This document shows, piece after piece, positions 6,951 through 32,882 of a stretch of DNA of 64,000 bases (positions are counted from its first letter, which is position 1; each line of letters starts with the position of its first letter). Position numbers and translations under genes: made by a program. The stretch lies in contig OZ244235.1 of the NCBI GenBank assembly GCA_965217095.1, forward strand, positions 5,268,609 to 5,332,608. Direction: 5' to 3'. This DNA is from Candidatus Latescibacterota bacterium. Its GTDB lineage: Bacteria > Latescibacterota > UBA2968 > UBA8231. The notes under the pieces are model-generated. The model was not told the origin of the DNA and did no database searches. It saw only the letters and a list, made by a program, of their open reading frames with translations.

Positions 6951-7891
6951 TGGTAGAGGATGAAATTCTCGTCGCAAGAGACCTGCAGTCCAGTTTGGAA
7001 CTCCTTGGATACGACGTTCCAGAGATTGCTATCTCGGGCGCGGAGGCGTTGGAAAAAATAAAAGCTACTCAACCAGATGTGGTGCTGATGGATATCCACC
7101 TGAAGGGCGACATGGATGGCGTGGAGGCCGCTGGCATAATCCGCGAGCAGTACGACATCGCGCTCATCTACCTGACCGCATACGCCGACGACCAGACCCT
7201 GCAGCGCGCGAAACTCACGCAGCCGTACGGCTACCTGTTAAAACCGTATCAGGAAACAGAGTTGAAAACCACTATCGAAGTGGCCCTCTACAAACATGAA
7301 ACCGAGGACAAGCTGAAGGTCGCCCACCTGCAACTGGAGCGCGCGCATGCGCAGATCCGGCGCCAGGTGCGGGAGTTGGAGGGCCGTGACCAGCTGGTGC
7401 GATTTCAGGTGACCGGTCCCACCGTTGTCGAGGCTTGCGATCAGATCGCTCGGATCTTTTCCGCTGTTTTCGGGCCCACTCAAATCGCGGTCTATCTGCC
7501 CGACGCCAGCGCTACCTGGCTCGAGTTGACTTCGAGTTCCGTCGCGGGTATCGACAGCACCGATCTCACTGACAGATTGGTCGCCAACGATCCGGATTCA
7601 CTGGTTGCCGCGTCTTTTCGGCATGCCGCTGCGCGGCTCAGTGTCGACGGCGGGCAAGCGGCGGTCGCCATGCGCTACGGAGACCGGGCTGTGGGTGTGG
7701 TTATGCTCGCGGCCGTCGAGCAGGAAAGTTGGCCGGCCGCCGAGCTGATCCCGGCTTTGCGTCGACTAGGTGAACAATCGGCTTTACTGCTGCGCATGGC
7801 CCGGGTTGCGACGGAACTGGATGGAGGACAGCTAACGGTTGAGGAACTCCTGGAGCTCGAGGAAGAGGCCAGCTATGACGATGGTGCGTGA
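6950..7891 (+). CDS. response regulator (REC plus C-terminal coiled-coil/GAF-like domain), 5'-disrupted by IS1380
   Basis: The REC domain begins abruptly at VVEDEILVARD... with only a GTG available at the IS junction. The native start lies at 5292, upstream of the IS. The C-terminal ~180 aa look GAF-like. Confidence 0.7.
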   Translation: MVEDEILVARDLQSSLELLGYDVPEIAISGAEALEKIKATQPDVVLMDIHLKGDMDGVEAAGIIREQYDIALIYLTAYADDQTLQRAKLTQPYGYLLKPYQETELKTTIEVALYKHETEDKLKVAHLQLERAHAQIRRQVRELEGRDQLVRFQVTGPTVVEACDQIARIFSAVFGPTQIAVYLPDASATWLELTSSSVAGIDSTDLTDRLVANDPDSLVAASFRHAAARLSVDGGQAAVAMRYGDRAVGVVMLAAVEQESWPAAELIPALRRLGEQSALLLRMARVATELDGGQLTVEELLELEEEASYDDGA

Positions 7892-10133
7892 GCGACCCAT
7901 GAAACGGCGATCTTCTTTGCTCGAGTCAGAACTCCCCGATCCCGCACTATCCGATGTTGAAAGTGTCGACCGCTTTCTGGAAGAGGTCGACGCGTTCGCT
8001 GAGTACGATCCGGACGCTTCCGTTGCAGAGCCGCAATCAGTCAGCGTGCATCAACAGCAACGGATCCGCCGCTTGGCGAGCGCTCTTGGGAGGGTGGCTG
8101 CGGACCTGAAGCGCGTTGAGGCGCCGCCCGGATTCGAACCCGCGGGGGCCCAGCCGTACTATGAGCTGGATATGGAAGGACAGCGACTGGCCATTCGCCA
8201 CGATGGGCTGCAAGCCTTTTGGATTTCCGATCCCGACTGGCAGGAACCGGAACGGCTGGCTGAGCTGCTCCACGCCCATGGTCTCATAGAGATCAATCGA
8301 GAGGCGATTACGGGCGGAGCACAGCGACTGCGGGACCAGTGGATTGAGGTAGCCGCAGGATCCGCCCCCACCGCGGGTCACGCAGCCCAGATCGGCTTCG
8401 TGGAACCGGGCAACCCGAACTCAGAGATTTCACCGGAATCGCTGGGTTTGATTTCCCTGGAACTGGCAGAGACGTTGAAATCCCAGGATGCCAAGGCCAT
8501 CCGCAAGAATCGCAGCGCCCTCGTCGCCGCACCCGGCGATCTGTTGGCCCGAGCCACATCCCCGACGCCTGGCCAATCGGGGCAAGACATATTCGGCCGG
8601 AACGTGGCGGCCGCGATCGAGAGCCGGGAACTCCATCTGCAAGCGGGATCCCACGTGACCTCGACGGACGCCGGGGAGTTTCATGCTGCCCGGTACGGCT
8701 ATGTCGCTATTGAGGACGGTCGACTTTCCATTCTGCCACCCATTCGAAGCGATGCCACCTCCATGAACGCCCACTGGGCGATGATGGGTAGCCAACGCTC
8801 CTCCCTTACAGTCGCGATGATCCAAGAGTGGCTGGTCGAGCTCGACGTCAACACGGGTGTGAAAGTGGATGTCATCGAAGCTCTGGTGGCCAAGGTCGGC
8901 GCTGGCGAGCACCCCACCGGCAGGCACCTAATTGCTGTCGGCTCGAGCCCTGTCGACGGGGAGGACGCGCATGTGGAAATTCTGGTAGATATGGAACGAA
9001 GCGCCGGCAAAGAGCGGGAAGATGGCTCCATCGATTTCAGGGAAGTCAACTTCACTCCCAACGTACGAGCGGGTCAGCGGGTGGCCTGGCGCACTAGCCC
9101 GACAACCGGCACCCCGGGCTGGGACCTTACCGGTAACGCCCAACCTGCCAACAACGGCAAGGAGCAGGTGTTGCAGGCTGGAGAGAACGTCCGGGTTGTC
9201 GAAGAGAGCGACCAAGAGGAGTACTACTCGTTGATCGACGGAGTGCTGAAACAGCACGGAGACGAACTTTCGGTGGCAGAGCGCCTAACCATCAACGGCG
9301 ATGTGAGTTATCGCACCGGAAATCTGGACTTCGGCGGCGAGATCTTTGTTAACGGTTCGGTGCTCTCTGGATTCTCGGTCAAGGCGGCCGGCGATATTAC
9401 GGTTTCCGGCACCTTAGAACCTGGCGCCACGCTTCAATCCGGAGGAGATATCGCCGTCGGCAAGGGGATACTGGGGCGCAAAACCAAGGTGAAGGCCGAG
9501 GGGAACATTCGCGCCCAGCTAGTCCAGGAGGCCAACCTGCGCGCCGGAAACAACATTCAAGTCGGCAATTATATCTACCATGCCAACGTCAAAGCCAAAG
9601 GGAAAGTTCTGGTATCTCGCGGCAAAGGTCGTCGGGGGGGAAGCATCATGGGAGGTGAGACCTGGGGCATGTTGGGCGTCGAAGCGCATATCGTCGGAAC
9701 GCCCAGCGAAACTCCGACGACGCTGGTGGCGGGTTTGAGTTACGAAGATGCTCAGTTGCTCGACCGGCTGGAACGTAGCATTGGCACTGCCAGCGATCAC
9801 ATCGAACGCCTTCTCGAACGATTTGCGCTCGATCACTTCGATCTCGTTCAGATCCGCAACATGATCAAGGCAGCCGTCGGTCCGAAACGCAAGATACTCG
9901 CCAAGAATGCGCGCCAGCTGGGACAGCTTGCCCAGATGTATCAACAGCTGTTGGAGCGGCGCGGAACCTTGAGAGAAAGGGTGGAATCGGTGCGCGAGTG
10001 CATAGAGGTAAAGATCTGGGACAGCGCTCATGCCGGCGTAGAAGCCCGATTGGGAGAATTTCGCCGCCGGCTCTCGGAGTTGTACCGGGCACCGCGATTT
10101 CATATCAAAGAGGGCACGATGGTGGCGGCCTAG
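7875..10133 (+). CDS. FapA/DUF342-like β-solenoid protein
   Basis: Long ORF, 764 aa by the track from 7839. Probable start ATG at 7875 or 7899. The C-terminal half is full of short β-helix repeats (GDVSYRTGNLDFGGEIFVNGSV, GDITVSGTL, GGDIAVGKG, GNIRAQLV, GNNIQVGNY), then a coiled coil, as in FapA proteins. Located 3' of the kinase/regulator pair. Confidence 0.5.
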   Translation: MTMVRERPMKRRSSLLESELPDPALSDVESVDRFLEEVDAFAEYDPDASVAEPQSVSVHQQQRIRRLASALGRVAADLKRVEAPPGFEPAGAQPYYELDMEGQRLAIRHDGLQAFWISDPDWQEPERLAELLHAHGLIEINREAITGGAQRLRDQWIEVAAGSAPTAGHAAQIGFVEPGNPNSEISPESLGLISLELAETLKSQDAKAIRKNRSALVAAPGDLLARATSPTPGQSGQDIFGRNVAAAIESRELHLQAGSHVTSTDAGEFHAARYGYVAIEDGRLSILPPIRSDATSMNAHWAMMGSQRSSLTVAMIQEWLVELDVNTGVKVDVIEALVAKVGAGEHPTGRHLIAVGSSPVDGEDAHVEILVDMERSAGKEREDGSIDFREVNFTPNVRAGQRVAWRTSPTTGTPGWDLTGNAQPANNGKEQVLQAGENVRVVEESDQEEYYSLIDGVLKQHGDELSVAERLTINGDVSYRTGNLDFGGEIFVNGSVLSGFSVKAAGDITVSGTLEPGATLQSGGDIAVGKGILGRKTKVKAEGNIRAQLVQEANLRAGNNIQVGNYIYHANVKAKGKVLVSRGKGRRGGSIMGGETWGMLGVEAHIVGTPSETPTTLVAGLSYEDAQLLDRLERSIGTASDHIERLLERFALDHFDLVQIRNMIKAAVGPKRKILAKNARQLGQLAQMYQQLLERRGTLRERVESVRECIEVKIWDSAHAGVEARLGEFRRRLSELYRAPRFHIKEGTMVAA

Positions 10134-10759: not shown

Positions 10760-11773
10760 CTACACGGAACGCGTGATGGTTCCGCACGGGGACCGGTGAC
10801 CCGACCGCGGCGTGGTGACGAATTCCGGAGCCGACCAGGTCATGCCGTCGTTGGTGGAGAATGCGACGCAGGGGGTTTCGAAGTCCGGTGTAGCACCCCA
10901 ATGTTGGTGCATGCAGACCATCAGCCGTCCGTCCGGCAGCTTGTGCACCCCTGAGTAGTTGTAACCCGCGTACATGTCGCCGCCGATGGGGGTAATGTGT
11001 GGGCTGATGCAGGCAACGTTGCTGACGTACTCGAAGCTAATGCCATTGTTGTAGCTGACGTAGTAGGCACAGATGTTGCGCCGGTAGATTCCTCCGACGA
11101 TGCCCAGAACTCCGTTGTCGAAGCGGACGTGGCCGAGGTTGACCGACAGAAAACCTCCGCCGGGCGCCCATCTGGGCGCGTCGAGCAGCGTCGCGTGCTT
11201 CTCCCAGGTGCGGCCACGGTCCGTGCTGCGCACACAGAACGACACGCAGTGCTTGGGTTTGCCCAGGTGAAAGTTGATCCCCTCGTTCGGTTGGTTCGAC
11301 GACCCTCCAATCGGAAATTTCACACTACTCTCCGCCTCGCAGAAGTGGATGATCGAGTCCGGGTCACCCAGGTCGATTTCCTCGCGCTCGCCGATGTCGC
11401 GTGGGCGCAGCCAGTCGAGCGTCTCGTCGATCGTGCGGTTGTTGTTCCAGATCCACTGGCGCTCGCTCTCGGGCCAGGTCTCACCCCAATCGAGGGAGCG
11501 GCTCAGCATCACCCCGGATTCGCTGCCCCATTTCTCGTGGGCCCCTCGAAAGGAAGGGTCTCCACCGCCGTGGCGGTTGTGCCCCGTCGGCAGATCGCCC
11601 GTGTAGTTCATCGGTACGGCGATGTAGGCGATGGCGATCTCGCCGTCACCGAAGTTCCAGATTCCACCTCGGTTAGGGGCGAACGGGTACAGATGTTCGT
11701 CGTGGTGGATCTTGATGTGCCTGACGTCGCTAACCTCGACCTGGCCTACGCCGACAGTTCGTCTTGATTCCAT
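10760..11773 (-). CDS. BNR/Asp-box repeat glycoside hydrolase (sialidase-like)
   Basis: Asp-box motifs RSTDRGRTW and STNDGMTWS. Start chosen at MESRR (GGAGAAG RBS). The track ORF extends to 11800. Confidence 0.55.
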   Translation of the reverse strand: MESRRTVGVGQVEVSDVRHIKIHHDEHLYPFAPNRGGIWNFGDGEIAIAYIAVPMNYTGDLPTGHNRHGGGDPSFRGAHEKWGSESGVMLSRSLDWGETWPESERQWIWNNNRTIDETLDWLRPRDIGEREEIDLGDPDSIIHFCEAESSVKFPIGGSSNQPNEGINFHLGKPKHCVSFCVRSTDRGRTWEKHATLLDAPRWAPGGGFLSVNLGHVRFDNGVLGIVGGIYRRNICAYYVSYNNGISFEYVSNVACISPHITPIGGDMYAGYNYSGVHKLPDGRLMVCMHQHWGATPDFETPCVAFSTNDGMTWSAPEFVTTPRSGHRSPCGTITRSV

Positions 11774-11931
11774 CAATGCTTCTCCGACAGGTTGTGGCAT
11801 GTTGTGCGCGATGTGATCACGGCGAAGGCACCGAAGCGCTCCTGCTCGGTGAGGACCGTGCTAATAAACGATATTATCGGCAGCGGCCAAGCGACAGTGT
11901 GCGACCCGACATTCACCGTGAGGAGATTGTG

Positions 11932-16173: not shown

Positions 16174-16620
16174 ATGGCCAGACAGCCGCTTCAAGTTCTA
16201 GTGATTCCGGTCCGAGTTCGCTCTGAGCCAGAGTTCGCGGTTTTTCGCCGTTCTGACGGCGAAATGTGGCAATTTATTGCTGGTGGCGCCGAGGACCACG
16301 AAGACGCATTGCAGGCAGCACATCGGGAGGCCGCAGAGGAAGCAGGCATTCCTCGCAATCTATCGATTGTTCGACTTGATTCAGTTGCCTCGATTACAAG
16401 ATCGTCGTTCTTGCAAACTGAACACTGGCCGGAAGATCTGTATGTCGTCCGTGAGTATTCGTTTGCCATTGATGTCGGTGACCGGCAATTGACGTTGTCC
16501 TCTGAACACGACGAGGTGAGGTGGTTGCCGTATGATATGGCATCATCTCTCCTGACATGGGACAGCAACCGGGTTGCCCTTTGGGAGCTAAATGAAAGGC
16601 TGGCAAGAGTCACTAGCTAA
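16174..16620 (+). CDS. NUDIX hydrolase
   Basis: Nudix box GGAEDHEDALQAAHREAAEEAGI. Confidence 0.8.
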   Translation: MARQPLQVLVIPVRVRSEPEFAVFRRSDGEMWQFIAGGAEDHEDALQAAHREAAEEAGIPRNLSIVRLDSVASITRSSFLQTEHWPEDLYVVREYSFAIDVGDRQLTLSSEHDEVRWLPYDMASSLLTWDSNRVALWELNERLARVTS

Positions 16621-17574: not shown

Positions 17575-18141
17575 ATGGCTAGCGACCGAGACCAGGGCAA
17601 GATTATTCTCATTAATGGCGCATCAAGCGCCGGTAAGTCGACTCTTGCACGTCACCTCCAGGAGACCTTGCCAGCACCTTTCTGGCATTTTTCGTTTGAC
17701 CATCTGCGCGATTCCGATGCCCTGCCGATGTCCCGCATAGGAAGAGGCGAACTCGATTGGTCGGCGATGCGTCCAGCCGTTTTCGACGGGTTTCACCAAT
17801 GTCTTCCGGTTTTGGCCAGGGCAGGCAACAATCTCATCGTTGACCACATAATCGAGACCGAGGCATGGCTGTCGGATCTGTTGAACCTTCTTTCTGATTG
17901 TGATGTATTCACTGTCGGGGTGCACTGTCCACTTCCAGAGCTAGAGCGAAGGGAGCGTGAGAGAGGGAACCGGCGCCCCGGTGAGGCAAAAGCGGATTTT
18001 CGGATAGTTCACAGTTTCGTCGAGTACGATCTGGAAGTGGATTCGACGCAACCCGCCGAAGCCAACGCCGCAGAGGTGATCGATGCTTGGACATGCCGCG
18101 TCCGACCGAATGCGTTCGATCGAATGGCTGCACGCAAGTGA
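17575..18141 (+). CDS. chloramphenicol-phosphotransferase-like (CPT family) P-loop kinase
   Basis: N-terminal KIILINGASSAGKSTLARHLQ P-loop and overall CPT-family layout. Confidence 0.7.
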   Translation: MASDRDQGKIILINGASSAGKSTLARHLQETLPAPFWHFSFDHLRDSDALPMSRIGRGELDWSAMRPAVFDGFHQCLPVLARAGNNLIVDHIIETEAWLSDLLNLLSDCDVFTVGVHCPLPELERRERERGNRRPGEAKADFRIVHSFVEYDLEVDSTQPAEANAAEVIDAWTCRVRPNAFDRMAARK

Positions 18142-18337
18142 TGTCCCCACTTCATACGACACAGCGGTTTACGGTGCGCCGTGCTAAGGCGCACATCTTC
18201 AGTGGGTGCGAATCCCACCCGGCAAGGGTCGCTCCAGCCGGTAGCAATCGGAGCAGCGGTGGAGGCGACGAAGCCGCTGAAGCCTTCGGCGTAGATGTGG
18301 TTCCGTCTGTTGAGACCACGTCCTCGCGCCGAAAAGC

Positions 18338-19432
18338 TCACTGAAACAGCGCGGCCTCGATGGTTAACCCCGGCCCGAACCCGAGCGCCACGCACGGCAT
18401 GCGGGCTCCCGAGTCCAGCAACCGTTCCAGGATGAACGCCAGAGTGGCCGATGACATGTTCCCGTGATCCCCGAGGACCTGGCGTGAGACGACAGTCGAC
18501 TCCGGGGACAGACCCAGCGCTTTCTCGGCTGCATCCAGGATCCTCGGCCCGCCGGGATGAATCGCCCAGGTGGAGACATCACCCCGCGTGAGACCCGACT
18601 CGGCGAGCCAAGGGTCCACGTACGCCGAAAGGTGCGCTTCGATGAGATCCGGGATCTGCGCCGAGATAGTCATCTGGAACCCATGATCGCCGATGCGCCA
18701 AGTCATGGCATCGGCCGAATCCGGCAGCAGGAAAGAGCCGCCGCGCGTCATCGTCCACTCGTCGGCTCCCCCGTCCGACCCGGCGGCGAAACGCGCCACG
18801 AGGGCGCCCGCGCCATCGGCGAACAGCGAATTCGAGACGATCCGGTCGGCATCCCAACCGTACTGGAAGTGCAGGGAGCACAGCTCGATCGAGGTCACCA
18901 GGATTCGGGCCTCTGGATCCGACCGGGCGATCGCCGCGGAGACGCGCAGCGCATTCAGCATAGCGTGGCAGCCCATGAAGCCAATCTGCACCCGCTCGAC
19001 CGTCCGCTCGAGCGACAGACCGTCGACGAGCTGGCAATCGATTCCGGGCGCGAAGAAGCCGGTGCACGTTACGGTTATCAGGTGAGTGATCTCACGCGGA
19101 TGCACCATGGATTTGCGCAGGGCATTGGAGGCGACCCGAAGCGCCAGCGACCCCGCGTGCCTTTCGTACCTGCACATTCGGGCTTCGGTGGACGGCCCCC
19201 GGTCCTCCGGACCTACCCGGAGCGGGTAGAAGTCGTAGTTCATTGACCCGCCGGTCTCGTCCAGGAGGACGCTGCCCCGCGCCCGAATCCTGGTCCTCTT
19301 GTAAAGTATCTTCAGCATCCGCTCCTGCTCCGGGGCGTTCGCCGATAGGGACAGCGCATGGTCCGCGCTCTCCAGCTGATCGATTGAGTGCGCCGAAGAC
19401 GCGGAAGCCACCGCCAGTATTCTGAGGGCCAT
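18338..19432 (-). CDS. type III polyketide synthase (chalcone/stilbene synthase family)
   Basis: Cys-containing GFMGCHAMLNAL segment, HPGGPRILD and the C-terminal GFGPGLT motif. Confidence 0.8.
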   Translation of the reverse strand: MALRILAVASASSAHSIDQLESADHALSLSANAPEQERMLKILYKRTRIRARGSVLLDETGGSMNYDFYPLRVGPEDRGPSTEARMCRYERHAGSLALRVASNALRKSMVHPREITHLITVTCTGFFAPGIDCQLVDGLSLERTVERVQIGFMGCHAMLNALRVSAAIARSDPEARILVTSIELCSLHFQYGWDADRIVSNSLFADGAGALVARFAAGSDGGADEWTMTRGGSFLLPDSADAMTWRIGDHGFQMTISAQIPDLIEAHLSAYVDPWLAESGLTRGDVSTWAIHPGGPRILDAAEKALGLSPESTVVSRQVLGDHGNMSSATLAFILERLLDSGARMPCVALGFGPGLTIEAALFQ

Positions 19433-19435
19433 GTA

Positions 19436-20593
19436 CTAGAGCCTTTCGATAAGGGGACGGTTGAAGCTCGCGACGACCGGCCGCGTCCACCCCGGTGACA
19501 ATGCTATCATGTGGATCAGCATACTCGTGATCGACGGCCGACCCAGCAGGTTCCGAAGGATTCGACAAACGGGCTGGCGTCCTACGATTTTCCGGCGGTG
19601 GATCCTCTCCCACTCGACGAGGAGCGATTCGGACCAGCGATCGCGGGCTGCTGCCGCGAGTGGCGCCACCCGCAGCGCCGAATTCAGTGCCCAGGACATG
19701 CCTTCGCCTGTGAAGGGCTCCACGTACCCGGTGGCATCGCCCACCAGGAACATCCGCCGCCTGCCGTGAATCCTGCGGCGACGCGTCAGGTACGGTGTGC
19801 CCCGGATACCCCGGACAATCTCAAACCCCTCCAGAACTCCCTCCCGCTCCAGGATACCGCGGAGGACCGCTTCCGGCGTCGACCCAACGAGCGCCCTGCG
19901 ATCGACGGCTGCAGCGACGTCCACAAGCCCATCTTCCAGGCGGACCAGGCCCACATATCCCTCAGAGGCCACCGTCATCCGGATCTCACCGACCCGGAGT
20001 TCCGACGCCGGCACCGCCGCGAGAACCCCGAGCCCGATCCTCGAGTCCGGTGCGACGACCGGGGAGAAGCATGGGTGCCCCCGGAGAAACCCTCCGTCGA
20101 GGCCGTCCGCGGCGAGCACAACGCGTGCATGCACGGTCGAGGGCGGAGTCCCGGCCCTCGGTTTCAGATCGACGAGCCAGCCTTCCGCCTGCTCCGCACC
20201 CAGTCGCGCGAAGGTGCCCGGTCGAAAGACCGTCCCTGCCTGCTGTGCCTCCCGCACCAGGGCGGCGTCGAGGGCTCGTCGCGAGACCGCGTAGCCCGAT
20301 GGGAGCGATATGTGCGCACGCCGTCCGTAGCCGCGAAGATCGAGCGTGTCCAGACGGTGGGCACCGAGACCATCGAGAAGCCCACGCAGCCCCGACTGTT
20401 CCAGGGCGTCCAGCGCCGCGCCGTTGAGGCAGCCGCCGCAGACCTTGTCGCGGGGAAACGCGCAGCGGTCAACGAGGAGCACCGACAGGCCCTTGCCCGC
20501 TAGCAGTCGCGCCGCAGTCGCGCCTGCTGGTCCCGCACCCGCCACGAACGCGTCCCAGTATTCACTGGGCTTCCCATTCCGCTCAGTTGCCAT
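19436..20593 (-). CDS. FAD-dependent oxidoreductase (geranylgeranyl-reductase / flavin monooxygenase family)
   Basis: N-terminal WDAFVAGAGPAGATAARLLAGKG Rossmann motif, FPRDKVCGGCL and GDATGYVEPFTGEG. Its 3' end is 4 nt from the PKS start, so the two are operonic. Confidence 0.75.
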   Translation of the reverse strand: MATERNGKPSEYWDAFVAGAGPAGATAARLLAGKGLSVLLVDRCAFPRDKVCGGCLNGAALDALEQSGLRGLLDGLGAHRLDTLDLRGYGRRAHISLPSGYAVSRRALDAALVREAQQAGTVFRPGTFARLGAEQAEGWLVDLKPRAGTPPSTVHARVVLAADGLDGGFLRGHPCFSPVVAPDSRIGLGVLAAVPASELRVGEIRMTVASEGYVGLVRLEDGLVDVAAAVDRRALVGSTPEAVLRGILEREGVLEGFEIVRGIRGTPYLTRRRRIHGRRRMFLVGDATGYVEPFTGEGMSWALNSALRVAPLAAAARDRWSESLLVEWERIHRRKIVGRQPVCRILRNLLGRPSITSMLIHMIALSPGWTRPVVASFNRPLIERL

Positions 20594-21350
20594 GTGTGCT
20601 CTGCGGGGCCCACGACAGCAGCAACCGGCACGGCCAGCGCCGCGTGCAGCGGACGCCCGGAAGGTCCGCGAGGATCGACATCGCGATCGTCTCTTCGAGC
20701 GAAAAGGCCGCCCGTACCGAGAGCAGGGCGTCCGCGTGCACGATCGGCGAGCGGGTGAACGCGCGACTCGCTACGCCCGCCAAGAGAAACCCCCGGGTTG
20801 ATCGCTCCAGGTCATGGACCACGAACCCGCGCCGGGCAGCGCGAGCCATTTCCCGAAACAGCCTGACCGCCTGTCCGTCAGCCAGGTGATGCAGGAAGAG
20901 GCTGGACACGAAGTAGCCGTATCCATCCGGTAGCGGCCCCTCGAGAACGTCGCGGGCGAAGAATCGGCACGTCGGCGTCGAGCCCGCGCGGGATTGCCGG
21001 TCCGCGAACTCGACCGCGTGACCACTCCTGTCGCAGCCGTCGAACTCGAACGGCATTCCGTCCCGTGCCGCCAGCGCCGCGAGTCGCCGGGTGATGTCCC
21101 CGCTCCCGCACGCGAGGTCCAGTACCCGCACAGGCCCTCCGCCTCCGTTGTGTCTGACCTCCATGCCCGCCAGCGCCGCCCATAGGCCATCCGCCGTTCG
21201 ACTCAGTCGGTTAAGACGTGCCAGCCCCCGTAGCGCCTGGATGTGCGACGAGGCGTCCAGGGCCCGGTCGTCCATGCGCTCATCGGCCCACTGGCGGCGT
21301 TCGAGCGCCCAGTTGCGTATCAGCCGATCTCTCCAGCGGACGTTGCTCAT
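20583..21350 (-). CDS. class I SAM-dependent methyltransferase
   Basis: VLDLACGSGD motif I. The track ORF extends to 21395, but the likely start is MSNVR at 21350. It overlaps the oxidoreductase start by 11 nt. Confidence 0.7.
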   Translation of the reverse strand: MSNVRWRDRLIRNWALERRQWADERMDDRALDASSHIQALRGLARLNRLSRTADGLWAALAGMEVRHNGGGGPVRVLDLACGSGDITRRLAALAARDGMPFEFDGCDRSGHAVEFADRQSRAGSTPTCRFFARDVLEGPLPDGYGYFVSSLFLHHLADGQAVRLFREMARAARRGFVVHDLERSTRGFLLAGVASRAFTRSPIVHADALLSVRAAFSLEETIAMSILADLPGVRCTRRWPCRLLLSWAPQSTHGN

Positions 21351-21733
21351 GCGCTGCCGGCCTCCAGTGCTTCGCGCGACACACAGACTCCACACATTTT
21401 GGGTTGTATCAGAGAACGATCAAAGTACCAAGTCTGTGAGGCAGGTTCAATTAGGGGAATTACTACATTCCAGAAGTGCGTGTAGGAAAACCACTTTGTG
21501 GGACACAACGCCATGCCTTGCTTGTGCCAATACGTGCACGATATCGCTTGCCAACGTGAATCCAATTCCCCAACATTTTTTGTTCGCACATTTTTGCATT
21601 GTCCAAAGTAGAGAATTTGCATGAGCTACCGCGAAATTCAATTGAATCCAAGATACTCTGATGAAATCCTAGCATGGGAGTACGACAGCTAAACAACAAG
21701 CTATCTCCTGCGAGGTGGCATGGTATCTGAAAT

Positions 21734-23780
21734 ATGCACACAAGGTCCAAGGCCAGCTCAGAGCCCCCCGGTGAGACCCACCCTTCAATCCCCTTGGATA
21801 GCGTAAGACAGCCAGAACCGAGCCGGGATGAAACGCCTCTCATTACGCTGCGGTCATTGGTTCTGGGTGCTCTGACCATTGCCGCAACCTTCTACTATTA
21901 CATAAACGAGATTCAGGGAACGGGCATGCTCGGTCATGCTGTGAGCTCACAGCTTCCGGTTGTCGTGTACGTTCCCTTCGTGTTATGGCTGTTCCTGAAT
22001 GTCCTTCTGAAACAGCTATGGCCGCGGCTGGCCCTCCGCAGGGGGGAGTTGCTGACGATCTTTGGAATGCTCTGGGTGGTAGGCACCATTCCGGGGTACG
22101 GCTGGATGGGGTATTGGGTACTCACGCTGGCGGCACCCGCTTTCTACGACACTGCCGAAAATCAGTGGGCCGAGATTCTCTTCGACTTCCTTCCCTGGCA
22201 TGTATTCCCCGACACCTCTGCACGGGTCATCGATGCCTTCTGGCTGGGCTTGCCGGAAGGTGCGCCGGTGCCCTGGGACGGTTGGTTCGGCGCAACAGCT
22301 CAGTGGTTGAGCGTTTCGGTGGCCATGGTCGGCTTCGGCCTCTGTTTGGTTATCCTGCTGCAACTGCAATGGGAAGCGAACGAGAAGCTGACCTTTCCCC
22401 TGGCTCAACTCCCGCTGGATCTGACTGCCGGATTCGACGGAGCACACGGGTGCCCCGTGATCTTCCGTTCGCGGCTGTTCTGGGTCGGCTTCGCCACAGT
22501 CTTCGTACCCGTCCTCTAACATCACATCCTACTTCATGGTCGGACTGCCGAGGATTGGGATTTACTGGGATCTCTACGACATTCATTTGGGAGAGGGATT
22601 CCCGACTTTACACTTCCGCATCATGCCTCTGGTGGTGGCCGTAACCTACCTGTGCCCCCTCGATATTCTGGCCAGCATGGTTGTCTTCCATCTGCTGGCG
22701 ATTTTCAAGGGGGCGGCTATGTCGCGGATCGGTTTCACCGTCGGCAGCGCTGAAGAGTCGTTACAGTGGAACGATATCCTTCATCTAGAAAGCTATGGCG
22801 CCATCATCTTCATGGGACTCTGGACCTTCTGGTTGGCTCGGGGCCACTTGCGCCACACCTGGCGGCAGGTTCGGTGGGGTGCCGGGGAACCTCAGGAGGT
22901 GTCGCGCCACCGGCGCGTGCTTCTGGGATTGACGATATGAGGCGTTTATCTCCTGGGATGGATGATGGCGCTGGGGATGAGCCTGCCAGCGGCGCTTCTA
23001 ATATTCTCCGTGGCGCTTTTGACCTACGTCGTGGTCGTCAAACTAATCGCCGCCACCGGATGTGCCTATCTGCTCACCGACCCAGGGCATATCAAGGGGA
23101 TCACCTTCGTGAATGAGCTGTTGGGCACTGCCCGCCTGTCACCCCGCAGCTATGTAGGGTTCAGGGTGTTCAGCGGTACGACCTTCTTTGGCAACTTACG
23201 CATTCCGGCCTGGCCTTCCCTGCCCCACCTGCTGCGCATCTTCTCGCTGAAACAACAGTCCGGATGGATAGCAGCGCTGGTCTTGGTCGCATTTCCAGTG
23301 GGATTCCTGGTAGCTGCGGGGGCAACGCTGGAAATGGCCTACACCAAGCAGGGGCTGGTCTTCTTTTCCGATAGCATCGGTCCCGGATACTACGAAACGG
23401 CTCGCAATCTGAATGACCCGGAAAATCCCGATCTCGGCCGCTGGCTCGTATTCCTTTTCGGCGTCGCGGAATCGGCGGTGCTGGCTATTTTGCGCGCCCG
23501 ATTTCACTGGTTTCCCCTGCATCCGGTGGGGGTCGCCTTTCAGTATACCATTGTCGGGATCGTATTTTGGTTTAGTCTGTTTCTGGTTTGGGCAGTGAAG
23601 GTGTTGCTGTTGCGCTTCGGCGGCAAAGGCGCTTACCTGGCGGGAAAGCCGTTCTTCTACGGTCTGGCAATCGGTTATGTAAGCGGAATAATCGTCTCGG
23701 TTTGCGTCGACCTCATCTGGTTTCCCACCGCAGGTCACAACGTTCATTCCTGGTTTGTGGAGATCAAAGCCCTGATCTAG
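21734..23780 (+). pseudogene. large polytopic membrane-protein gene (uncharacterised family) broken into three ORFs by a frameshift near 22520 and an in-frame TGA at 22938
   Basis: ORFs 21734..22519 (frame 2), 22536..22940 and 22962..23780 (both frame 0) are all hydrophobic, multi-helix and collinear. The last two are separated only by a TGA plus 7 codons, with no RBS. No hairpin follows this TGA. Confidence 0.5.
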
Positions 23781-29188: not shown

Positions 29189-32100
29189 CTACCTGCGCGG
29201 CCGTCGCACTCGAATTGGGTCGGGGGGTTGTGGTCGGATCCTAACCTCCTCATCCTTCAGCAATTCGAGGGCGACGTCGACGGCTTTTTCGAGCTGGGGG
29301 TCGTGGCCCATATTGACCAGCTTCGGATCCTGCTCGACTTCGATATCCGGTGCGACCCCGATGTTCTCGACATCCCACTCGCCCTCTAGATTGTAAAATC
29401 CCCCGCGGGGAGCGGTGATGTACCCGCCGTCAATCAAGGGCGGTACGTCCCATACTCCGACCAGTCCGCCCCACGTGCGGGTGCCCACGAGAGGACCAAT
29501 TTCCTTCAGACGGAACATGTAGGGCAGCATGTCGCCCCCCGATCCCGCCATCTCGTTGATGATCATGACCTTTGGGCCCCACACTGCGGCGTTAGGGGCC
29601 GTGAACGGCTGCCGGTCTCCGAGAGGATTGTTGAAATATCCAAGTAACTTGCGCGACAACAGATCGACAATATAGTCTGCGATATAGCCCCCGTGATTGA
29701 AGCGCTCGTCGATTATAGCTCCCTTCCTGTCCTGCTGGGCGAAGTAATAGCGGTTGAAGCTCCGTTGGCCCGCTCTCGACGTGTTAGGTAACCAAACGTA
29801 AGCGATTCGACCGTAGGTCAACTCGTCGACCTTCCGACGGTTGCTCTCCACCCAATCCCGCTGGCGGAGGGCTGCTTCGCTCTTCACCGGCACGACGGTC
29901 ACCTCCCGCGCGCCGGATGTGTCCGGCTGATCGTTGACCAAGAGCGCGGTCTGCTCGTCAGCAGTGCGGTCGAACAGGCTGTACAGATTCATACCGGCGT
30001 CGAGAGCGTCACCGTTCACAGCCAACACGTAGTCGCCACCGCTGACATCGATGCCGGGACCGCTAAGGGGGGCGCGAAGCTCTGGATTCCAGTTCTCCCC
30101 GGTGTAGATCTTGACGATGCGGTAACGGCCTCGGTTGACCTCGAAATCGGCTCCAAGCAATCCTACCGGAACCCGATCGACCTCCGGCCAATCGCCGCCC
30201 CCAGTGAAAGAATGACCGATGGCGGTCTCGCCGCCGAGCTTATCGAGGATGTACGTGAGATCGGCTCGGTGACGAACGTTCGCCACCCAGGGAGAGTACG
30301 TCTCGTATACCCAGTCGAGGTCGAGCCCGTGGACATTGTCAACGTAGAAGTAGTCGCGTTGGTAGCGCCAGGCTTCCCTGAACATCTGCTCCCATTCAGC
30401 TTTAGGATCGACCTTCATTCTCATACCGTCGACGGGCAGGGCCTCGTCGATCGGCTCTATCTCCTCCCCCGCATCGGCGATTTCCCACACGTCATCATGA
30501 GTCCGATAGAGAAGCTTTTTGCCGTCTGCCGAGACGAGGACGTCTTCGATACCGTCCAGTACCTGCTTACCCTCGCGGTCTTGGAGGGAATAACGGTGCA
30601 ACCGCATCCCATCTTCGTTCGGAACATGCTCGCTGTAGTATATGACACCCTCTTCGCCGGCAAGCAGCGTCGCGTAGTTCCGTGCGGGTATGTCAAGGGC
30701 GATGATGCGCTGATCGAGACCGTTGAAGTCTATGTGGACATCAACGGGCTCTTTGTCGTCATCATCACCATCTTCAGATTTCTTATCTTCGCCATCCTCA
30801 CCGTTGTCCTCTTCCTTCTCCTCCTCGGGCTTCTCGTCATCACTTTCTGGCAGTATGGGAGAGGGCTCGTCAGCCGCGAGCACTGCGAGGTAGATCGCGC
30901 GACTGAGGGGACGATCGATGGAACTCATGTCGAGCCAACCGACTTGCAGTCCGTAATCGGTGCTGGACATGAAGTAGAGATATTTGCCGTTGGCATCCCA
31001 TGCCGGCGACAGGCAATCCGAAAGGCCATCGGTCAACTGAAACGACTTTCGTTGCTCGAGAGAGTAGACGAAGATGACATTGTATTGATTCGGCAATCGT
31101 TTGGTGTACGCGATCCACTTGGAGTCGGGTGACCACTCGGGGTAGATAGTGCGATAAGGATGGGAGAACCCCTCGTTGTCGATGAGCTCGGCTTTACCCT
31201 CGGCGACATTGGCAACCCACAGGTTGCGGTCTGCATCGGCGAAGCTGATGTGTTCGGAGTCGGGCGACCACTTCGGCGTGTAGTAGAAGGTCGGGTGATC
31301 TAGGCGCATGGTCGTCTGATTCTTGCCGAATTGGTCAGCAATGACCAGCTGGTACTCACCGCCCGCGTCAGAAAACCAGCTGATACGCGTACCGTCCGGA
31401 GACCAGGCGGGCGTGCGATCGGCAACGCCAGGGCTGCGCGTTAGGTTGCGGATCGACCCCTTCTCCGCCGGAACCGTGAAGATGTCCCCCCGAGCTGAGA
31501 ATACTGCACGTTTGCCTTTGGGCGAGATCGCTCGTCCACGGATGAGGCCGTCGACACTCTCCCAGTGAGGGCGTGCCCATGGAAAATCACCACGAAGCTG
31601 TACGGAAAGCCTTTCGGGTGTCCCACCGCCCGCGTCGAGCGTATAGAGATAACCACTGTTTGTGAAGACAAGCTGCCCCGCACCGCCCTCGAGGTCACCG
31701 CAGTCGGCATCCGTGAAGAAGGTGAGCTGTTCGAGTTTTTCTGCCTTCAGGTCGTAGGTCCACACATTCACGACGTGGTCGCGGTCAGATAGAAAGAAGA
31801 TCCTCTCACCCAGCCACACGGGGTTCTTGTCATTGGCTCCGTCCCAGGGAAGTTTCTCGACGTCATGTGTCTTTAAATCGATGATCCGAATCGGGTTGTT
31901 CTGTCCGCCGCGATAGTGCCGCCATTCGCTCTCCCACTGGAAAACCATTTGGTATGCGAGACGACGGCCATGTGGAGAGAGTTGTCCTTCTAGGAGCCGA
32001 GGTACAGGCAGTACATTCGGAAGGCCGCCGTCGAGTCCTATGGTCCAAAACTTATAGAGATACTGACGCGGGGCACTCGTTCGCCCAGAAGCGAACAGGA

Positions 32101-32458
32101 CGCGATCGTCTGGCGTCCAACCCCTCACAAGGTCGGGCCCGGGATGCCAGGTAAGACGTTGCGGTTCTCCTCCTTCCACGTCTACAACGTAGACGTCGAT
32201 GTTGCCGTCATACTCTCCAGACAGTGCAATTCGGGTGCCGTCGCGCGAGAAATGCGGCTGAAACTCTGCACCTGGGAAGGTGGTGATCCGCCTTGCCTCT
32301 CCACCATCCGTGTCAACGAGCCAGATGTCGTTTGCATAGACGAACGCAACGTGGTTCTCACTGATTGCCGGTTGCCTCAGCAATCGCGCTTCTTCAGCGA
32401 AAACTGCCGTTGCAAGCAGAAAGCTGAAGGCTGCAGACAGAACAATGCTGGCTTGCAT
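29189..32458 (-). CDS. tricorn protease homologue (β-propeller domains, PDZ, S41-type peptidase domain)
   Basis: Start chosen at MQASIVLSAAFSFLLATAVFA, a signal peptide. The track ORF extends to 32596. WD40/tricorn-type propeller signatures, then PDZ and C-terminal-processing-peptidase-like regions. Acidic insert DDEKPEEEKEEDNGEDGEDKKSEDGDDDDKE at about 30750-30850. Confidence 0.75.
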   Translation of the reverse strand: MQASIVLSAAFSFLLATAVFAEEARLLRQPAISENHVAFVYANDIWLVDTDGGEARRITTFPGAEFQPHFSRDGTRIALSGEYDGNIDVYVVDVEGGEPQRLTWHPGPDLVRGWTPDDRVLFASGRTSAPRQYLYKFWTIGLDGGLPNVLPVPRLLEGQLSPHGRRLAYQMVFQWESEWRHYRGGQNNPIRIIDLKTHDVEKLPWDGANDKNPVWLGERIFFLSDRDHVVNVWTYDLKAEKLEQLTFFTDADCGDLEGGAGQLVFTNSGYLYTLDAGGGTPERLSVQLRGDFPWARPHWESVDGLIRGRAISPKGKRAVFSARGDIFTVPAEKGSIRNLTRSPGVADRTPAWSPDGTRISWFSDAGGEYQLVIADQFGKNQTTMRLDHPTFYYTPKWSPDSEHISFADADRNLWVANVAEGKAELIDNEGFSHPYRTIYPEWSPDSKWIAYTKRLPNQYNVIFVYSLEQRKSFQLTDGLSDCLSPAWDANGKYLYFMSSTDYGLQVGWLDMSSIDRPLSRAIYLAVLAADEPSPILPESDDEKPEEEKEEDNGEDGEDKKSEDGDDDDKEPVDVHIDFNGLDQRIIALDIPARNYATLLAGEEGVIYYSEHVPNEDGMRLHRYSLQDREGKQVLDGIEDVLVSADGKKLLYRTHDDVWEIADAGEEIEPIDEALPVDGMRMKVDPKAEWEQMFREAWRYQRDYFYVDNVHGLDLDWVYETYSPWVANVRHRADLTYILDKLGGETAIGHSFTGGGDWPEVDRVPVGLLGADFEVNRGRYRIVKIYTGENWNPELRAPLSGPGIDVSGGDYVLAVNGDALDAGMNLYSLFDRTADEQTALLVNDQPDTSGAREVTVVPVKSEAALRQRDWVESNRRKVDELTYGRIAYVWLPNTSRAGQRSFNRYYFAQQDRKGAIIDERFNHGGYIADYIVDLLSRKLLGYFNNPLGDRQPFTAPNAAVWGPKVMIINEMAGSGGDMLPYMFRLKEIGPLVGTRTWGGLVGVWDVPPLIDGGYITAPRGGFYNLEGEWDVENIGVAPDIEVEQDPKLVNMGHDPQLEKAVDVALELLKDEEVRIRPQPPDPIRVRRPRR

Positions 32459-32882
32459 GAGTGACTCTCTTTGAGGCGATGGAGAAGAGCGTCCTCTCAG
32501 GCATGGACGCTGTGGAACAGGCAATACTACGCCTGCTCTATCGCTCTTGCAATGAGAAATCCCTCTGCTGCGCCATGTGAGAGAATCCCTTTGCACACAC
32601 GCGCAGAAAGACGCTTCGGGGATAGAGTCGGTAATCGGATTATGACAACGATTTGGATGTTAGGATTCCTAGAACTGGATTACGGGAAGGAGTCCTCCCC
32701 ACGAAGGCAGTTTGGGCGTGGTATCTTGGCTAACAGATGGTCTAGCTTCGCCGAAAGAGGTGGACTACTCTCGGGCGCAAATTGACATGCAATTGTGGGA
32801 ACAGGCAACACATCATTTCTCAGTAGCTGCGGTATGGCAGAGTCTTCAAGCTCTGCATAGGCAAACTGGTCTAGCCGTGACA

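What the first reader, a model, noticed from the sequence alone, without database searches (positions are those of the whole stretch)
18338..21733. Type III PKS / FAD-oxidoreductase / methyltransferase operon (phenolic-lipid or alkylresorcinol type) with an AT-rich divergent control region
Three tightly coupled minus-strand genes (methyltransferase, flavoprotein, type III PKS). By gene content they match the srsABC-like sets that make methylated or hydroxylated alkylresorcinols and alkylpyrones; here the order is methyltransferase, flavoprotein, PKS rather than srsA-srsB-srsC.

The 340-bp upstream intergenic region (21396-21733) is markedly AT-richer than the surroundings. It contains direct repeats (TTTGCAT ... 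TTTGCAT; TTGCCAA ... TTGCCAA) and is shared with the divergently transcribed large membrane-protein gene.
Basis: established knowledge. Interest (0 to 1): 0.5.

Follow-up and report, generated by a model that had tools for sequence, protein, structure and literature searches.

The report
Hierridin-type alkylresorcinol operon, horizontally acquired
These three genes are an ordinary copy of a known bacterial operon (hidABC type) that builds long-chain phenolic lipids called alkylresorcinols; it sits in this uncultured bacterium as a recently imported 3.2-kb block, and the repeats in the AT-rich region upstream are no more than chance would give.

Summary
Three tightly coupled minus-strand genes encode a class I SAM methyltransferase (20583-21350), an FAD oxidoreductase (19436-20593) and a type III PKS (18338-19432).

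The lipid-resorcinol reading is supported, but the closest match is not srsABC. It is the hidABC operon of picocyanobacteria and its counterpart in Planctomycetota (Costa 2019; Milke 2024), which has exactly this gene order.
- The order recurs in 53 of 73 informative GTDB loci.
- The PKS has the Cys155/His292/Asn325 triad and Trp245 at the ArsB-281/ArsC-284 position that favours resorcinol formation.
- Its score against RppA-type THNS is low.

The upstream spacer is the most AT-rich spot in the window (43.5% GC). TTTGCAT occurs twice, TTGCCAA only once, and repeated 7-mers are not above chance.

New here: the operon is a discrete block, 18314-21504, with 67% GC against 58% for the rest of the window. 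It is about 95% identical, with the same borders, to a copy in a second lineage that has unrelated, IS-rich flanks. The divergent DUF6785 gene is broken.

Verdict: a new member of a known kind, of low interest.

The parts
20583..21350 (-). hidA-like class I SAM-dependent methyltransferase, first gene of the operon (255 aa from the ATG at 21350; the longest ORF starts at the GTG at 21395)
   Evidence: Pfam Methyltransf_25/31/12/11. NCBIfam PRK06202 scores 192.5 bits, below its cutoff of 243. GGAGG lies 10 nt upstream of the ATG at 21350. Sibling contig L086 calls a 255-aa product. Identity to the MT in the same position is 41% for Gimesia L009 and 43% for Synechococcus CS-1332 L030. No solved structure matches by sequence.
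19436..20593 (-). hidB-like FAD-dependent oxidoreductase (385 aa), second gene; its start overlaps the MT stop by 11 nt
   Evidence: Pfam FAD_binding_3. TIGR02032 GG-reductase superfamily scores 115 bits (cutoff 158.8) and QhpG 81 bits. GxGxxG, DG and GD motifs and the invariant stretch FPRxKxCG are present. The AF2 model has pLDDT 91.3. Best PDB folds are flavin-dependent halogenases (TM 0.77-0.83), PnpA-type hydroxylases (0.77-0.79) and GGR 3oz2 (0.70). There is no WxWxIP motif, and the presumed halogenase Lys (FasV Lys78) aligns to Leu81.
18338..19432 (-). hidC-like type III polyketide synthase (364 aa), last gene; predicted long-chain alkylresorcinol synthase
   Evidence: Pfam Chal_sti_synt_N/C. 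Triad Cys155/His292/Asn325 and Trp245 are invariant in 84 relatives. Trp245 aligns with the ArsC G284W site. Identity is 46% to the characterised G. maris enzyme over clean OCR blocks, 48% to its 94%-identical proxy L009, and 51% to Synechococcus CS-1332. In the NJ tree it sits inside the hid-type radiation.
21351..21504 (-). Leader and promoter region that travels with the operon (5' end of the transferred block)
   Evidence: 87-90% identical to lineage-B contigs L005/L092/L093. Similarity stops sharply at 21504. No sigma-70 consensus match was found.
21505..21733 (.).
   Evidence: No similarity to the lineage-B copies. Lowest GC in the window. Repeats are at chance level.
18314..18337 (-). 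3' tail of the transferred block (14-24 nt after the PKS stop codon)
   Evidence: The same border is seen in L005, L092, L093 and L094. No terminal direct or inverted repeats of 7 nt or more join the two borders.
18200..18289 (+). Group II intron remnant (D1-D4 motif) in the convergent spacer beside the 3' border; belongs to the host context, not to the operon
   Evidence: Rfam RF02003 scores 63.1 bits against a gathering score of 49. Model positions 1-90 are well paired and the rest is degenerate. No D5/D6 and no reverse-transcriptase ORF are present.
21734..23780 (+). Divergent DUF6785+DUF6784 membrane-protein gene, disrupted (pseudogene or decaying gene)
   Evidence: Three ORFs cover DUF6785 profile positions 1-217, 254-361 and 372-496, plus DUF6784. 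There is a 2-bp deletion at 22518 relative to L089 and an in-frame TGA at 22938-22940. Sibling contig L090 has an IS inserted at 22785-22788.

Best explanation
This is a hidABC-type (hierridin-type, or planctomycete-type) alkylresorcinol operon, transcribed 21504 -> 18314 on the minus strand as one translationally coupled mRNA.

Proposed pathway:
1. Inferred from characterised homologues: the type III PKS loads a C14-C18 fatty acyl thioester.
2. It extends the chain with three malonyl-CoA units.
3. With Trp245 narrowing the active-site cavity, it closes the ring by C2-C7 aldol condensation and decarboxylation, giving a 5-alkylresorcinol.
4. The SAM methyltransferase then methylates the ring. 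HidA does this on oxygen; the Gimesia enzyme probably does it on carbon.
5. The flavoprotein most likely hydroxylates the ring. The product would be a methylated alkyl-hydroxyresorcinol or hydroquinone lipid of the hierridin / polyketide-quinone type.

Shown here:
- gene content, gene order and coupling;
- family placement;
- the catalytic residues;
- that the operon is a discrete GC-rich 3.19-kb block shared at about 95% identity, with identical borders, with a second lineage that carries it in another genomic context. This indicates recent horizontal acquisition.

Not shown: the starter length, the site of methylation, the flavoprotein reaction, and the biological role.
For: **Domains and coupling.**

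**Gene order.**
- MT-FDO-PKS occurs in the same order directly upstream of the PKS in L001 (69% identity), L003 (56%) and L005 (97%).
- It also occurs in 53 of 73 GTDB loci with enough flank; 5 more have MT-PKS and 12 have the PKS alone.

**Literature.**
- 58 of 96 planctomycete T3PKS genes are the last gene of such an operon.
- The order is the same as in hidABC of Cyanobium (PMC10896814; PMC6836626; PMC8086630).

**Family placement.**
- Locus L009 is 94% identical to the characterised G. maris PKS. The window PKS is 46-48% identical to these and 51% to a Synechococcus hid-like PKS.
- The NJ tree puts it inside this radiation, far from the PKS18 outgroup, and sister to Acidobacteriota copies.

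**Active site.** The triad and Trp245 are invariant. Trp245 aligns with the ArsC G284W / ArsB W281 site (role of this residue per PMC9927152).

**Transferred block.**
- 94.6-95.8% nucleotide identity over exactly 21504..18314 with L005, L092 and L093, whose flanks are unrelated and IS-rich.
- Other homologous ORFs between the two lineages are only 55-57% identical at protein level.
- Operon GC is 0.670 against 0.583 for the rest of the window, and 0.661 against 0.548 in L005.
Against: - No chemistry was done for this locus.
- Identity to the characterised enzymes is only 44-51%. Two planctomycete PKSs of similar identity (P. limnophila, A. californiensis; neither in an operon) gave no product in the heterologous host (PMC10896814).
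- In that study, co-expressing the Gimesia MT and FDO gave a methylated product but no hydroxylated one, so the flavoprotein's role is unproven.
- The flavoprotein keeps the FPRxKxCGG motif, which I recall as typical of geranylgeranyl/MenJ-type reductases (that attribution was not checked here). Its nearest folds are halogenases.
- HidC itself was not available for direct comparison.
- My tree is neighbour-joining without bootstrap support.
- The 55-57% identical 'other' genes used as the baseline for transfer may be paralogues.
- The host taxon is unresolved.
Confidence: 0.85

Rival explanations
1. It is a member of the actinobacterial srsABC / pkqABC system. In that system a PKS is followed by a methyltransferase and then a hydroxylase, and the products are alkylquinones that act as membrane or respiratory lipids.
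For: - The three enzyme classes and the predicted logic are the same: resorcinol, then methylation, then oxidation (PMC9927152).
- The resorcinol-type Trp is shared.
Against: - The gene order is MT-FDO-PKS, not PKS-MT-oxidoreductase.
- In the published tree, HidC and the planctomycete enzymes form a branch separate from SrsA/AgqA (PMC10896814, section 13).
- All close relatives found here carry the hid order.
Confidence: 0.05
2. The PKS is a long-chain alkylpyrone synthase of the PKS18 or ArsC type. It would release tri- or tetraketide pyrones by lactonisation rather than resorcinols.
For: - The best solved-structure matches are PKS18-type enzymes: 7cb3 at 181 bits and 1ted at 171 bits.
- Many alkylresorcinol synthases also give pyrone by-products (this is from my own knowledge of the family).
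Against: - Trp245 occupies the position that is Gly in the pyrone-forming ArsC and Leu in PKS18/7cb3.
- The ArsC G284W mutant scores 6 bits higher than the wild type against this sequence.
- Characterised operon-type relatives make resorcinols (PMC10896814).
Confidence: 0.07
3. The PKS is an RppA-type tetrahydroxynaphthalene synthase or a DpgA-type synthase, with no lipid starter.
For: NCBIfam's best named hit is DpgA, at 166 bits.
Against: - The DpgA score is far below its cutoff of 425.
- THNS 1u0m scores only 122.6 bits.
- The published tree separates the HidC clade from RppA, PhlD and DpgA (PMC10896814).
Confidence: 0.01
4. The flavoprotein is not a ring hydroxylase. It would instead be a reductase (MenJ or geranylgeranyl-reductase-like, for example saturating an alkenyl side chain or reducing a quinone) or a halogenase.
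For: - Invariant FPRxKxCG with Cys52. I recall this motif as typical of the GGR/MenJ family; that attribution was not checked here.
- TIGR02032 is the best NCBIfam hit, and some sources name homologues 'menaquinone-9 beta-reductase'.
- The top fold matches are flavin-dependent halogenases acting on phenols or pyrroles, with TM up to 0.83.
- No hydroxylated product was seen when the Gimesia MT and FDO were co-expressed, and the halogenase for hierridin C is unknown (PMC10896814, PMC6836626).
Against: - Against a halogenase: there is no WxWxIP motif (GYVGLVRLEDG in its place), and the presumed halogenase Lys aligns to a conserved Leu.
- Against a classical reductase: the TIGR02032 score is below its cutoff. 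The fold is closer to aromatic hydroxylases and halogenases (TM 0.77-0.83) than to GGR (0.70).
- For a hydroxylase: hierridin B needs one extra ring oxygen, and HidB is the only redox enzyme in the cluster (PMC6836626). QhpG, a hydroxylase, is the second-best NCBIfam hit.
Confidence: 0.2
5. The AT-rich spacer is a shared divergent control region, and its direct repeats are operator sites that co-regulate the operon and the membrane-protein gene.
For: - It is the most AT-rich 300 bp in the window.
- The two TTTGCAT copies are 23 bp apart, about two helical turns.
Against: - The count of repeated 7-mers is within chance, and TTGCCAA is not repeated exactly.
- The repeats lie in 21505-21733, which is absent from the lineage-B copies of the operon.
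- The leader is not conserved in the 83%-identical L094.
- The divergent gene is disrupted, and IS-interrupted in a sibling contig.
- No sigma-70-like promoter and no Rfam element was found in the spacer.
- No regulator gene is adjacent.
Confidence: 0.08

Closest known systems
hidABC (hierridin B/C biosynthesis, Cyanobium sp. LEGE 06113; Costa et al. 2019, as described in PMC6836626 and PMC8086630)
   Same: - Three genes in the same order: SAM methyltransferase, FAD oxidoreductase, type III PKS.
- The PKS is a long-chain alkylresorcinol synthase.
- A cyanobacterial hid-like operon (Synechococcus CS-1332, L030) shares 43%, 39% and 51% protein identity with the three window proteins.
   Different: - The host is not a cyanobacterium.
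- Identity is only about 40-50%.
- The product and the methylation pattern are unknown here.
- HidC itself was not compared directly.
Planctomycetota mtr-fdo-t3pks operon (Gimesia maris, Rhodopirellula baltica; Milke et al. 2024, PMC10896814)
   Same: - Same tricistronic order, with the PKS last.
- Flanking genes are not conserved between hosts.
- The window PKS is 46% identical to the G. maris enzyme and 44% to the R. baltica enzyme over clean OCR blocks.
- The family forms one star-like radiation.
   Different: - In the NJ tree the window copy groups with Acidobacteriota-type copies (L003/L006) rather than with planctomycete ones.
- The host phylum is unresolved.
- Here the operon is visibly a recently transferred block, with a GC offset of +9 points.
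srsABC (Streptomyces griseus) / pkqABC (Mycobacterium smegmatis, Streptomyces sp. MNU77; PMC9927152)
   Same: - Same chemistry in outline: alkylresorcinol, then methylation, then oxidation to alkyl(hydro)quinone.
- Trp at the ArsB-281 position.
   Different: - Gene order is PKS-MT-oxidoreductase.
- The PKS clade is separate in the published tree.
- The homology of the tailoring enzymes was not tested here.
ArsB/ArsC (Azotobacter vinelandii) and PKS18 (M. tuberculosis)
   Same: - Long-chain acyl-primed type III PKSs.
- The ArsC G284W site aligns to Trp245.
- PKS18-type enzymes are the best solved-structure matches.
   Different: - The Ars enzymes work with type I FAS partners (ArsA/D) and have no MT/FDO operon.
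- PKS18 has Leu at the Trp position and makes pyrones.

Membership tests
hidABC-type alkylresorcinol operon | Three co-directional genes in the order methyltransferase, FAD oxidoreductase, type III PKS, forming one operon | tested here: met
   ORFs run 21350->20583, 20593->19436 and 19432->18338, with an 11-nt overlap and a 3-nt gap. The same order is found in 53 of 73 related GTDB loci.
hidABC-type alkylresorcinol operon | PKS belongs to the HidC / planctomycete clade of type III PKSs | tested here: met
   The NJ tree of 84 relatives plus a PKS18 outgroup places it in the same radiation as three reference loci:
- L009, 94% identical to the characterised G. maris enzyme;
- L045, 97% identical to the P. 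limnophila enzyme;
- L030, a Synechococcus hid-like copy.

Caveats: there is no bootstrap support, and HidC, SrsA and RppA sequences were not in the tree.
hidABC-type alkylresorcinol operon | Tailoring enzymes homologous to HidA (class I SAM MT) and HidB (FAD oxidoreductase) | tested here: met
   tblastn gives 36-49% identity for the MT and 30-51% for the FDO to the genes in the same positions in the GTDB loci. These include cyanobacterial L030 and Gimesia L009.
hidABC-type alkylresorcinol operon | Product is a long-chain (C15/C17) 5-alkylresorcinol derivative | not testable with these tools
   This needs expression and GC/LC-MS. [quoted passage not shown]
Type III PKS, alkylresorcinol synthase subtype | Cys-His-Asn catalytic triad | tested here: met
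   Cys155 (FMGC), His292 (IHPGG) and Asn325 (GNMSS) are invariant in 84 of 84 relatives and in PKS18.
Type III PKS, alkylresorcinol synthase subtype | Trp at the ArsB-281 / ArsC-284 position, which favours aldol (resorcinol) over lactone (pyrone) closure | tested here: met
   Trp245 aligns with the single residue that differs between 3vs8 (Gly) and 3vs9 (Trp). It is invariant in 84 relatives, and is Leu in PKS18/7cb3.
srsABC / pkqABC | Operon order PKS, methyltransferase, oxidoreductase | tested here: not met
   The order here is the reverse for the PKS: it is the last gene.
srsABC / pkqABC | PKS clusters with SrsA/PkqA; tailoring enzymes homologous to SrsB/SrsC | not tested
   The sequences were not retrievable with these tools. 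The published tree separates the HidC clade from SrsA (PMC10896814).
RppA-type THN synthase | Closest similarity to RppA/THNS | tested here: not met
   1u0m scores 122.6 bits, against 171-181 bits for PKS18-type enzymes and at least 387 bits for hid-type relatives.
DpgA (NCBIfam NF042429) | Score at or above the curated cutoff | tested here: not met
   166.5 bits against a cutoff of 425.
Flavin-dependent halogenase (for the flavoprotein) | WxWxIP motif and catalytic Lys | tested here: not met
   The fold is closest to FasV, ChlB4 and PltA (TM 0.77-0.83). However, the motif region reads GYVGLVRLEDG. FasV Lys78, which I take to be the catalytic Lys from its position (not confirmed), aligns to the conserved Leu81.
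Geranylgeranyl reductase family TIGR02032 (for the flavoprotein) | Score at or above the curated cutoff; FPRxKxCGG motif with the conserved Cys | tested here: inconclusive
   115.4 bits against a cutoff of 158.8, so the score test is not met. The motif, with Lys50 and Cys52, is invariant. The attribution of the motif to this family rests on my recall. TM to GGR 3oz2 is 0.70.

The most novel reading that the evidence does not exclude
The 3.19-kb hid-like block (18314-21504) may be a unit that currently moves between distantly related uncultured soil bacteria without any mobility gene or terminal repeat of its own, landing beside mobile-element debris (IS elements; a group II intron remnant). 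In addition, its HidB-type flavoprotein may do chemistry other than the assumed ring hydroxylation, so that the end product is an undescribed lipid, for example a redox-active polyketide quinone. The flavoprotein combines a halogenase-like fold with a reductase-type Lys/Cys motif and has neither halogenase signature.
Probability: 0.15. Interest if true: 0.5.

Novelty: new member of a known kind. Interest (0 to 1): 0.17.

Why it matters
The finding matters little on its own. It adds one more instance of a widespread, already characterised alkylresorcinol operon, this time outside the two phyla where it has been studied.

It has two modest uses:
- It gives a clean, border-resolved example of the horizontal transfer that earlier papers proposed only from phylogeny. 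The same 3.19-kb block sits at about 95% identity in two lineages with unrelated flanks.
- It underlines that the role of the HidB-type flavoprotein is still experimentally open. The protein's sequence motifs and its fold point in different directions.

Tried and rejected
- **Sigma-70 promoter and intrinsic terminator scan of 18000-21900.** No promoter was found. The only terminator-like site lies inside the MT gene, at a chance-level count.
- **Rfam on the spacer.** Nothing was found in 21351-21733. The only hit is the group II intron fragment downstream of the PKS.
- **Terminal repeats at the two block borders.** No direct or inverted repeats of 7 nt or more, in the window or in L005. The block is therefore not a transposon-like unit.
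- **Host taxonomy via the tricorn protease.** The best named non-self hits (60-69% identity) come from Gemmatimonadota, Latescibacteria, Krumholzibacteria, Planctomycetes, Acidobacteria and Bacteroidota, so the phylum is unresolved. The window has no tRNA or rRNA. The single GTDB scan returned nothing closer than 56%.
- **Characterised gene sequences from the Milke 2024 supplement.** The PDF text has many OCR indels. tblastn across them underestimated identity. I used only the error-free 60-nt lines, so those identities cover 170-260 residues.
- **Anand 2015 (PMC6051517).** The paper could not be fetched.
- **Solved structures for the MT.** No match by sequence.
- **Neighbouring genes.** I checked for acyl-activating or carrier proteins and found none.

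Full report
**Observation**

- a 364-aa protein at 18338-19432;
- a 385-aa protein at 19436-20593;
- a methyltransferase ORF at 20583-21395.

Pfam and NCBIfam identify them as follows:
- The first is a type III PKS (Chal_sti_synt_N/C).
- The second is an FAD-binding oxidoreductase. It hits FAD_binding_3. Its best NCBIfam hits are the geranylgeranyl-reductase superfamily TIGR02032 (115 bits, below the cutoff of 158.8) and the hydroxylase QhpG.
- The third is a class I SAM methyltransferase (Methyltransf_25). Its NCBIfam PRK06202 score is 192 bits, below the cutoff of 243.

The genes are translationally coupled. The MT stop and the FDO start overlap in ATGGCAACTGA, and the FDO TAG is followed by TAC and then the PKS ATG.

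The MT most likely starts at the ATG at 21350. GGAGG lies 10 nt upstream, and a 255-aa product is called in sibling contig L086.

The spacer 21396-21733 has 43.5% GC and contains the lowest-GC 300 bp of the whole window.

The repeats hold up only in part:
- TTTGCAT occurs twice, at 21593 and 21616.
- TTGCCAA occurs once, at 21548; the other copy is GTGCCAA.
- Eight 7-mers recur in the spacer, against 4.7 +/- 2.8 in Markov-1 shuffles, and 15.6% of shuffles reach that number.

The repeats are real strings but not a signal.

**What it is**

- Milke et al. 2024 (PMC10896814) found that 58 of 96 planctomycete type III PKS genes are the last gene of a methyltransferase, FAD-oxidoreductase, PKS operon.
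- They showed that the PKSs of Gimesia maris, Rhodopirellula baltica and Stieleria maiorica make pentadecyl- and heptadecyl-resorcinols in Corynebacterium glutamicum.
[quoted passage not shown] 2019, as described in PMC6836626 and PMC8086630).

I tested this placement in four ways.

1. *Close homologues.* The nearest homologues with long contigs carry MT-FDO-PKS in the same order, with unrelated flanks: L001 (69% identity), L003 (56%) and L005 (97%).

2. *GTDB scan.* A scan of GTDB species genomes returned 80 loci at 43-56% PKS identity. They come from:
   - Planctomycetota, Acidobacteriota, Gemmatimonadota and Hydrogenedentota;
   - cyanobacteria and Obscuribacterales;
   - Elusimicrobia, Omnitrophota and a Vreelandella.

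   Of the 73 loci with at least 2.2 kb of upstream flank, 53 have MT-FDO-PKS, 5 have MT-PKS and 12 have the PKS alone.

3. *Characterised sequences.* I recovered the characterised gene sequences from the paper's supplement. The text carries OCR errors, so I used only intact 60-nt lines. Results:
   - Locus L009 (Gimesia sp.) is 94% identical to the characterised G. maris PKS.
   - L045 is 97% identical to the P. limnophila enzyme.
   - The window PKS is 46% identical to the G. maris enzyme and 44% to the R. baltica enzyme.
   - It is also 51% identical to the PKS of a Synechococcus hid-like operon (L030).

4. *Tree.* A neighbour-joining tree of 84 relatives, rooted with PKS18 and 7cb3, puts the window PKS inside this star-like radiation. 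It lies in a small clade with L005, L001 and two Acidobacteriota-type copies.

**Active site**

The catalytic triad is Cys155 (FMGC), His292 (IHPGG) and Asn325 (GNMSS). It is invariant in all 84 relatives.

Trp281 of ArsB, which is Gly284 in ArsC, has been linked to resorcinol rather than pyrone formation (summarised in PMC9927152). The PDB holds ArsC wild type (3vs8) and the G284W mutant (3vs9).
- A 47-aa fragment of the window PKS aligns without gaps to both.
- Trp245 falls exactly on the one residue that differs between them.
- The mutant scores 6 bits higher, and the same 6-bit difference appears in the full-length search.

Trp245 is invariant in the family, and the position is Leu in the pyrone-forming PKS18. 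This supports an alkylresorcinol synthase.

RppA-type THNS (1u0m) scores 122.6 bits, PKS18-type enzymes score 171-181 bits, and hid-type relatives score at least 387 bits. The DpgA model scores 166 bits against a cutoff of 425.

**The flavoprotein**

This is the least settled step. The literature assigns HidB the ring hydroxylation that hierridin B requires (PMC6836626). Co-expressing the Gimesia MT and FDO, however, gave only a methylated product, probably C-methylated (PMC10896814).

What I found:
- The protein has GxGxxG, DG and GD flavin motifs and an invariant FPRxKxCG stretch with Lys50 and Cys52. I recall this stretch as the signature of geranylgeranyl/MenJ-type reductases; that is from memory and was not checked.
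- By sequence, the best solved relative is Thermoplasma GGR 3oz2, followed by N-terminal matches to flavin halogenases.
- An AlphaFold2 model built on 41 homologues is confident (pLDDT 91.3, pTM 0.91).
- Its best PDB neighbours are flavin-dependent halogenases of phenols and pyrroles (FasV, ChlB4, PltA, Mpy16, Bmp2, CndH, PltM) at TM 0.77-0.83. Aromatic hydroxylases such as PnpA reach 0.77-0.79, and GGR reaches 0.70.
- It lacks the halogenase WxWxIP motif; the region reads GYVGLVRLEDG.
- FasV Lys78 aligns to the conserved Leu81. From its position I take Lys78 to be the catalytic Lys; this is an inference.

I therefore keep 'ring hydroxylase' as the most likely role. It rests on inference from pathway logic, the QhpG affinity and the fold. 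I give a reductase or other chemistry about 0.2.

**The operon is an imported block**

The window belongs to a population also sampled by ENA long-read contigs L086-L090, which are 99.8% identical to it. I call this lineage A.

A second set of contigs (L005, L091-L093; lineage B) carries a PKS that is 97% identical.
- The nucleotide similarity is 94.6-95.8% and covers exactly window 21504..18314 in all of them.
- That span includes about 155 bp upstream of the MT ATG and 14-24 nt after the PKS stop.
- The flanks are unrelated.
- Downstream in lineage B lie IS elements of several families.

The few other homologous ORFs between the two lineages are only 55-57% identical at protein level. They may be paralogues, which is a caveat.

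The block is compositionally foreign in both lineages. Its GC is 0.670 against 0.583 in the window, and 0.661 against 0.548 in L005. In L001, L003, L006, L009 and L030 the operon is at most 5 points above its flanks.

Identity rises from 87% at the 5' end to 97-98% in the PKS. The two borders share no direct or inverted repeats. A more distant copy (L094, 83.6%) shares the 3' border but not the leader.

The simplest reading is recent horizontal acquisition of a 3.19-kb block from a higher-GC donor. This fits the horizontal-transfer proposal already made for this operon (PMC10896814).

**Consequences for the 'control region'**

The spacer is a composite.
- 21351-21504 travels with the operon and presumably holds its promoter. 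No sigma-70 consensus was found there, and the host's promoter type is unknown.
- 21505-21733 is host-specific.

The divergent gene is a DUF6785+DUF6784 membrane protein that is no longer intact:
- In-frame TGA at 22938-22940 splits the DUF6785 domain in all sibling contigs.
- The window has an extra 2-bp deletion at 22518.
- Contig L090 has an IS inserted at 22785-22788. That IS is 99.6% identical to the window's own DDE_Tnp_1_4 element at 5304-6950.

A shared, repeat-based operator for two divergent genes is therefore unlikely (about 0.08).

**Other context**

Rfam finds a group II intron D1-D4 motif at 18200-18339 on the plus strand. It scores 63.1 bits against a gathering score of 49, but only model positions 1-90 are well matched. 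The window has no D5/D6 and no reverse-transcriptase ORF. This is an intron remnant in the convergent spacer, 25-35 nt from the block's 3' border. It is further mobile-element debris at the junction.

No acyl-activating enzyme, carrier protein or regulator lies next to the operon.

The host phylum could not be resolved. The tricorn protease's best named relatives, at 60-69% identity, are spread over Gemmatimonadota, Latescibacteria, Krumholzibacteria, Planctomycetes, Acidobacteria and Bacteroidota.

**Verdict**

The locus passes every membership test that sequence analysis can apply.

It is a new member of a known kind and of low interest. Two minor points are worth keeping: the border-resolved evidence that the operon moves as a discrete block, and the unresolved chemistry of the HidB-type flavoprotein.

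Noticed in passing
window 18200-18339 (+): Rfam group-II-D1D4-4 (RF02003) hit at 63.1 bits, above its gathering score of 49. Only model positions 1-90 (18200-18289) are well matched. The window has no D5/D6 and no reverse transcriptase, so this looks like a group II intron remnant. It lies between the CPT-like kinase gene and the PKS stop, next to the 3' border of the transferred block.
   Followed up: partly
window 21734-23780 (+); L090 4571-6185: The DUF6785+DUF6784 membrane-protein gene is broken. All sibling contigs have an in-frame TGA at 22938-22940, and the window has a 2-bp deletion at 22518. In sibling contig L090 an IS is inserted at 22785-22788 with a 4-bp overlap that looks like a target duplication.
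   Followed up: yes
window 5304-6950 (-): A DDE_Tnp_1_4 transposase IS element (ORF 5512-6903). A 99.6% identical copy sits at a different site in sibling contig L090, so the element appears active in this population. Lineage-B contigs carry only about 30% identical members of the same family.
   Followed up: partly
window 21134; L089: Sibling contig L089 has an extra GC dinucleotide inside the methyltransferase gene, which truncates its called product to 182 aa. The window and L086 are intact. This is either a real loss-of-function variant or a long-read assembly error.
   Followed up: no
window 10808: An 11-bp deletion relative to sibling contig L089, at the edge of the BNR/sialidase-like gene (10760-11800).
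   Followed up: no
window 33534-35090 (-); L092 1163-2764: A 518-aa ORF with no Pfam match lies in a second GC-rich patch (0.65). It has a 55% identical homologue about 1.3 kb upstream of the lineage-B copy of the operon (L092 1163-2764; the MT starts at 4094). It is unclear whether this is coincidence or a linked gene.
   Followed up: no
L005, L091-L093 downstream of the PKS: In lineage B the region downstream of the operon is a variable graveyard of IS elements (IS1595, IS3/rve, DDE_3, Transposase_mut, DDE_Tnp_1_4), lying before a sigma-70 family gene and a response regulator.
   Followed up: partly
window 17575-18141 (+), 16174-16620 (+), 29189-32596 (-), 7839-10133 (+): Neighbouring genes unrelated to the operon: a chloramphenicol-phosphotransferase-like kinase convergent with the PKS, a NUDIX hydrolase, a tricorn protease and a FapA-like protein. 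Nothing in the window resolves the host phylum.
   Followed up: partly
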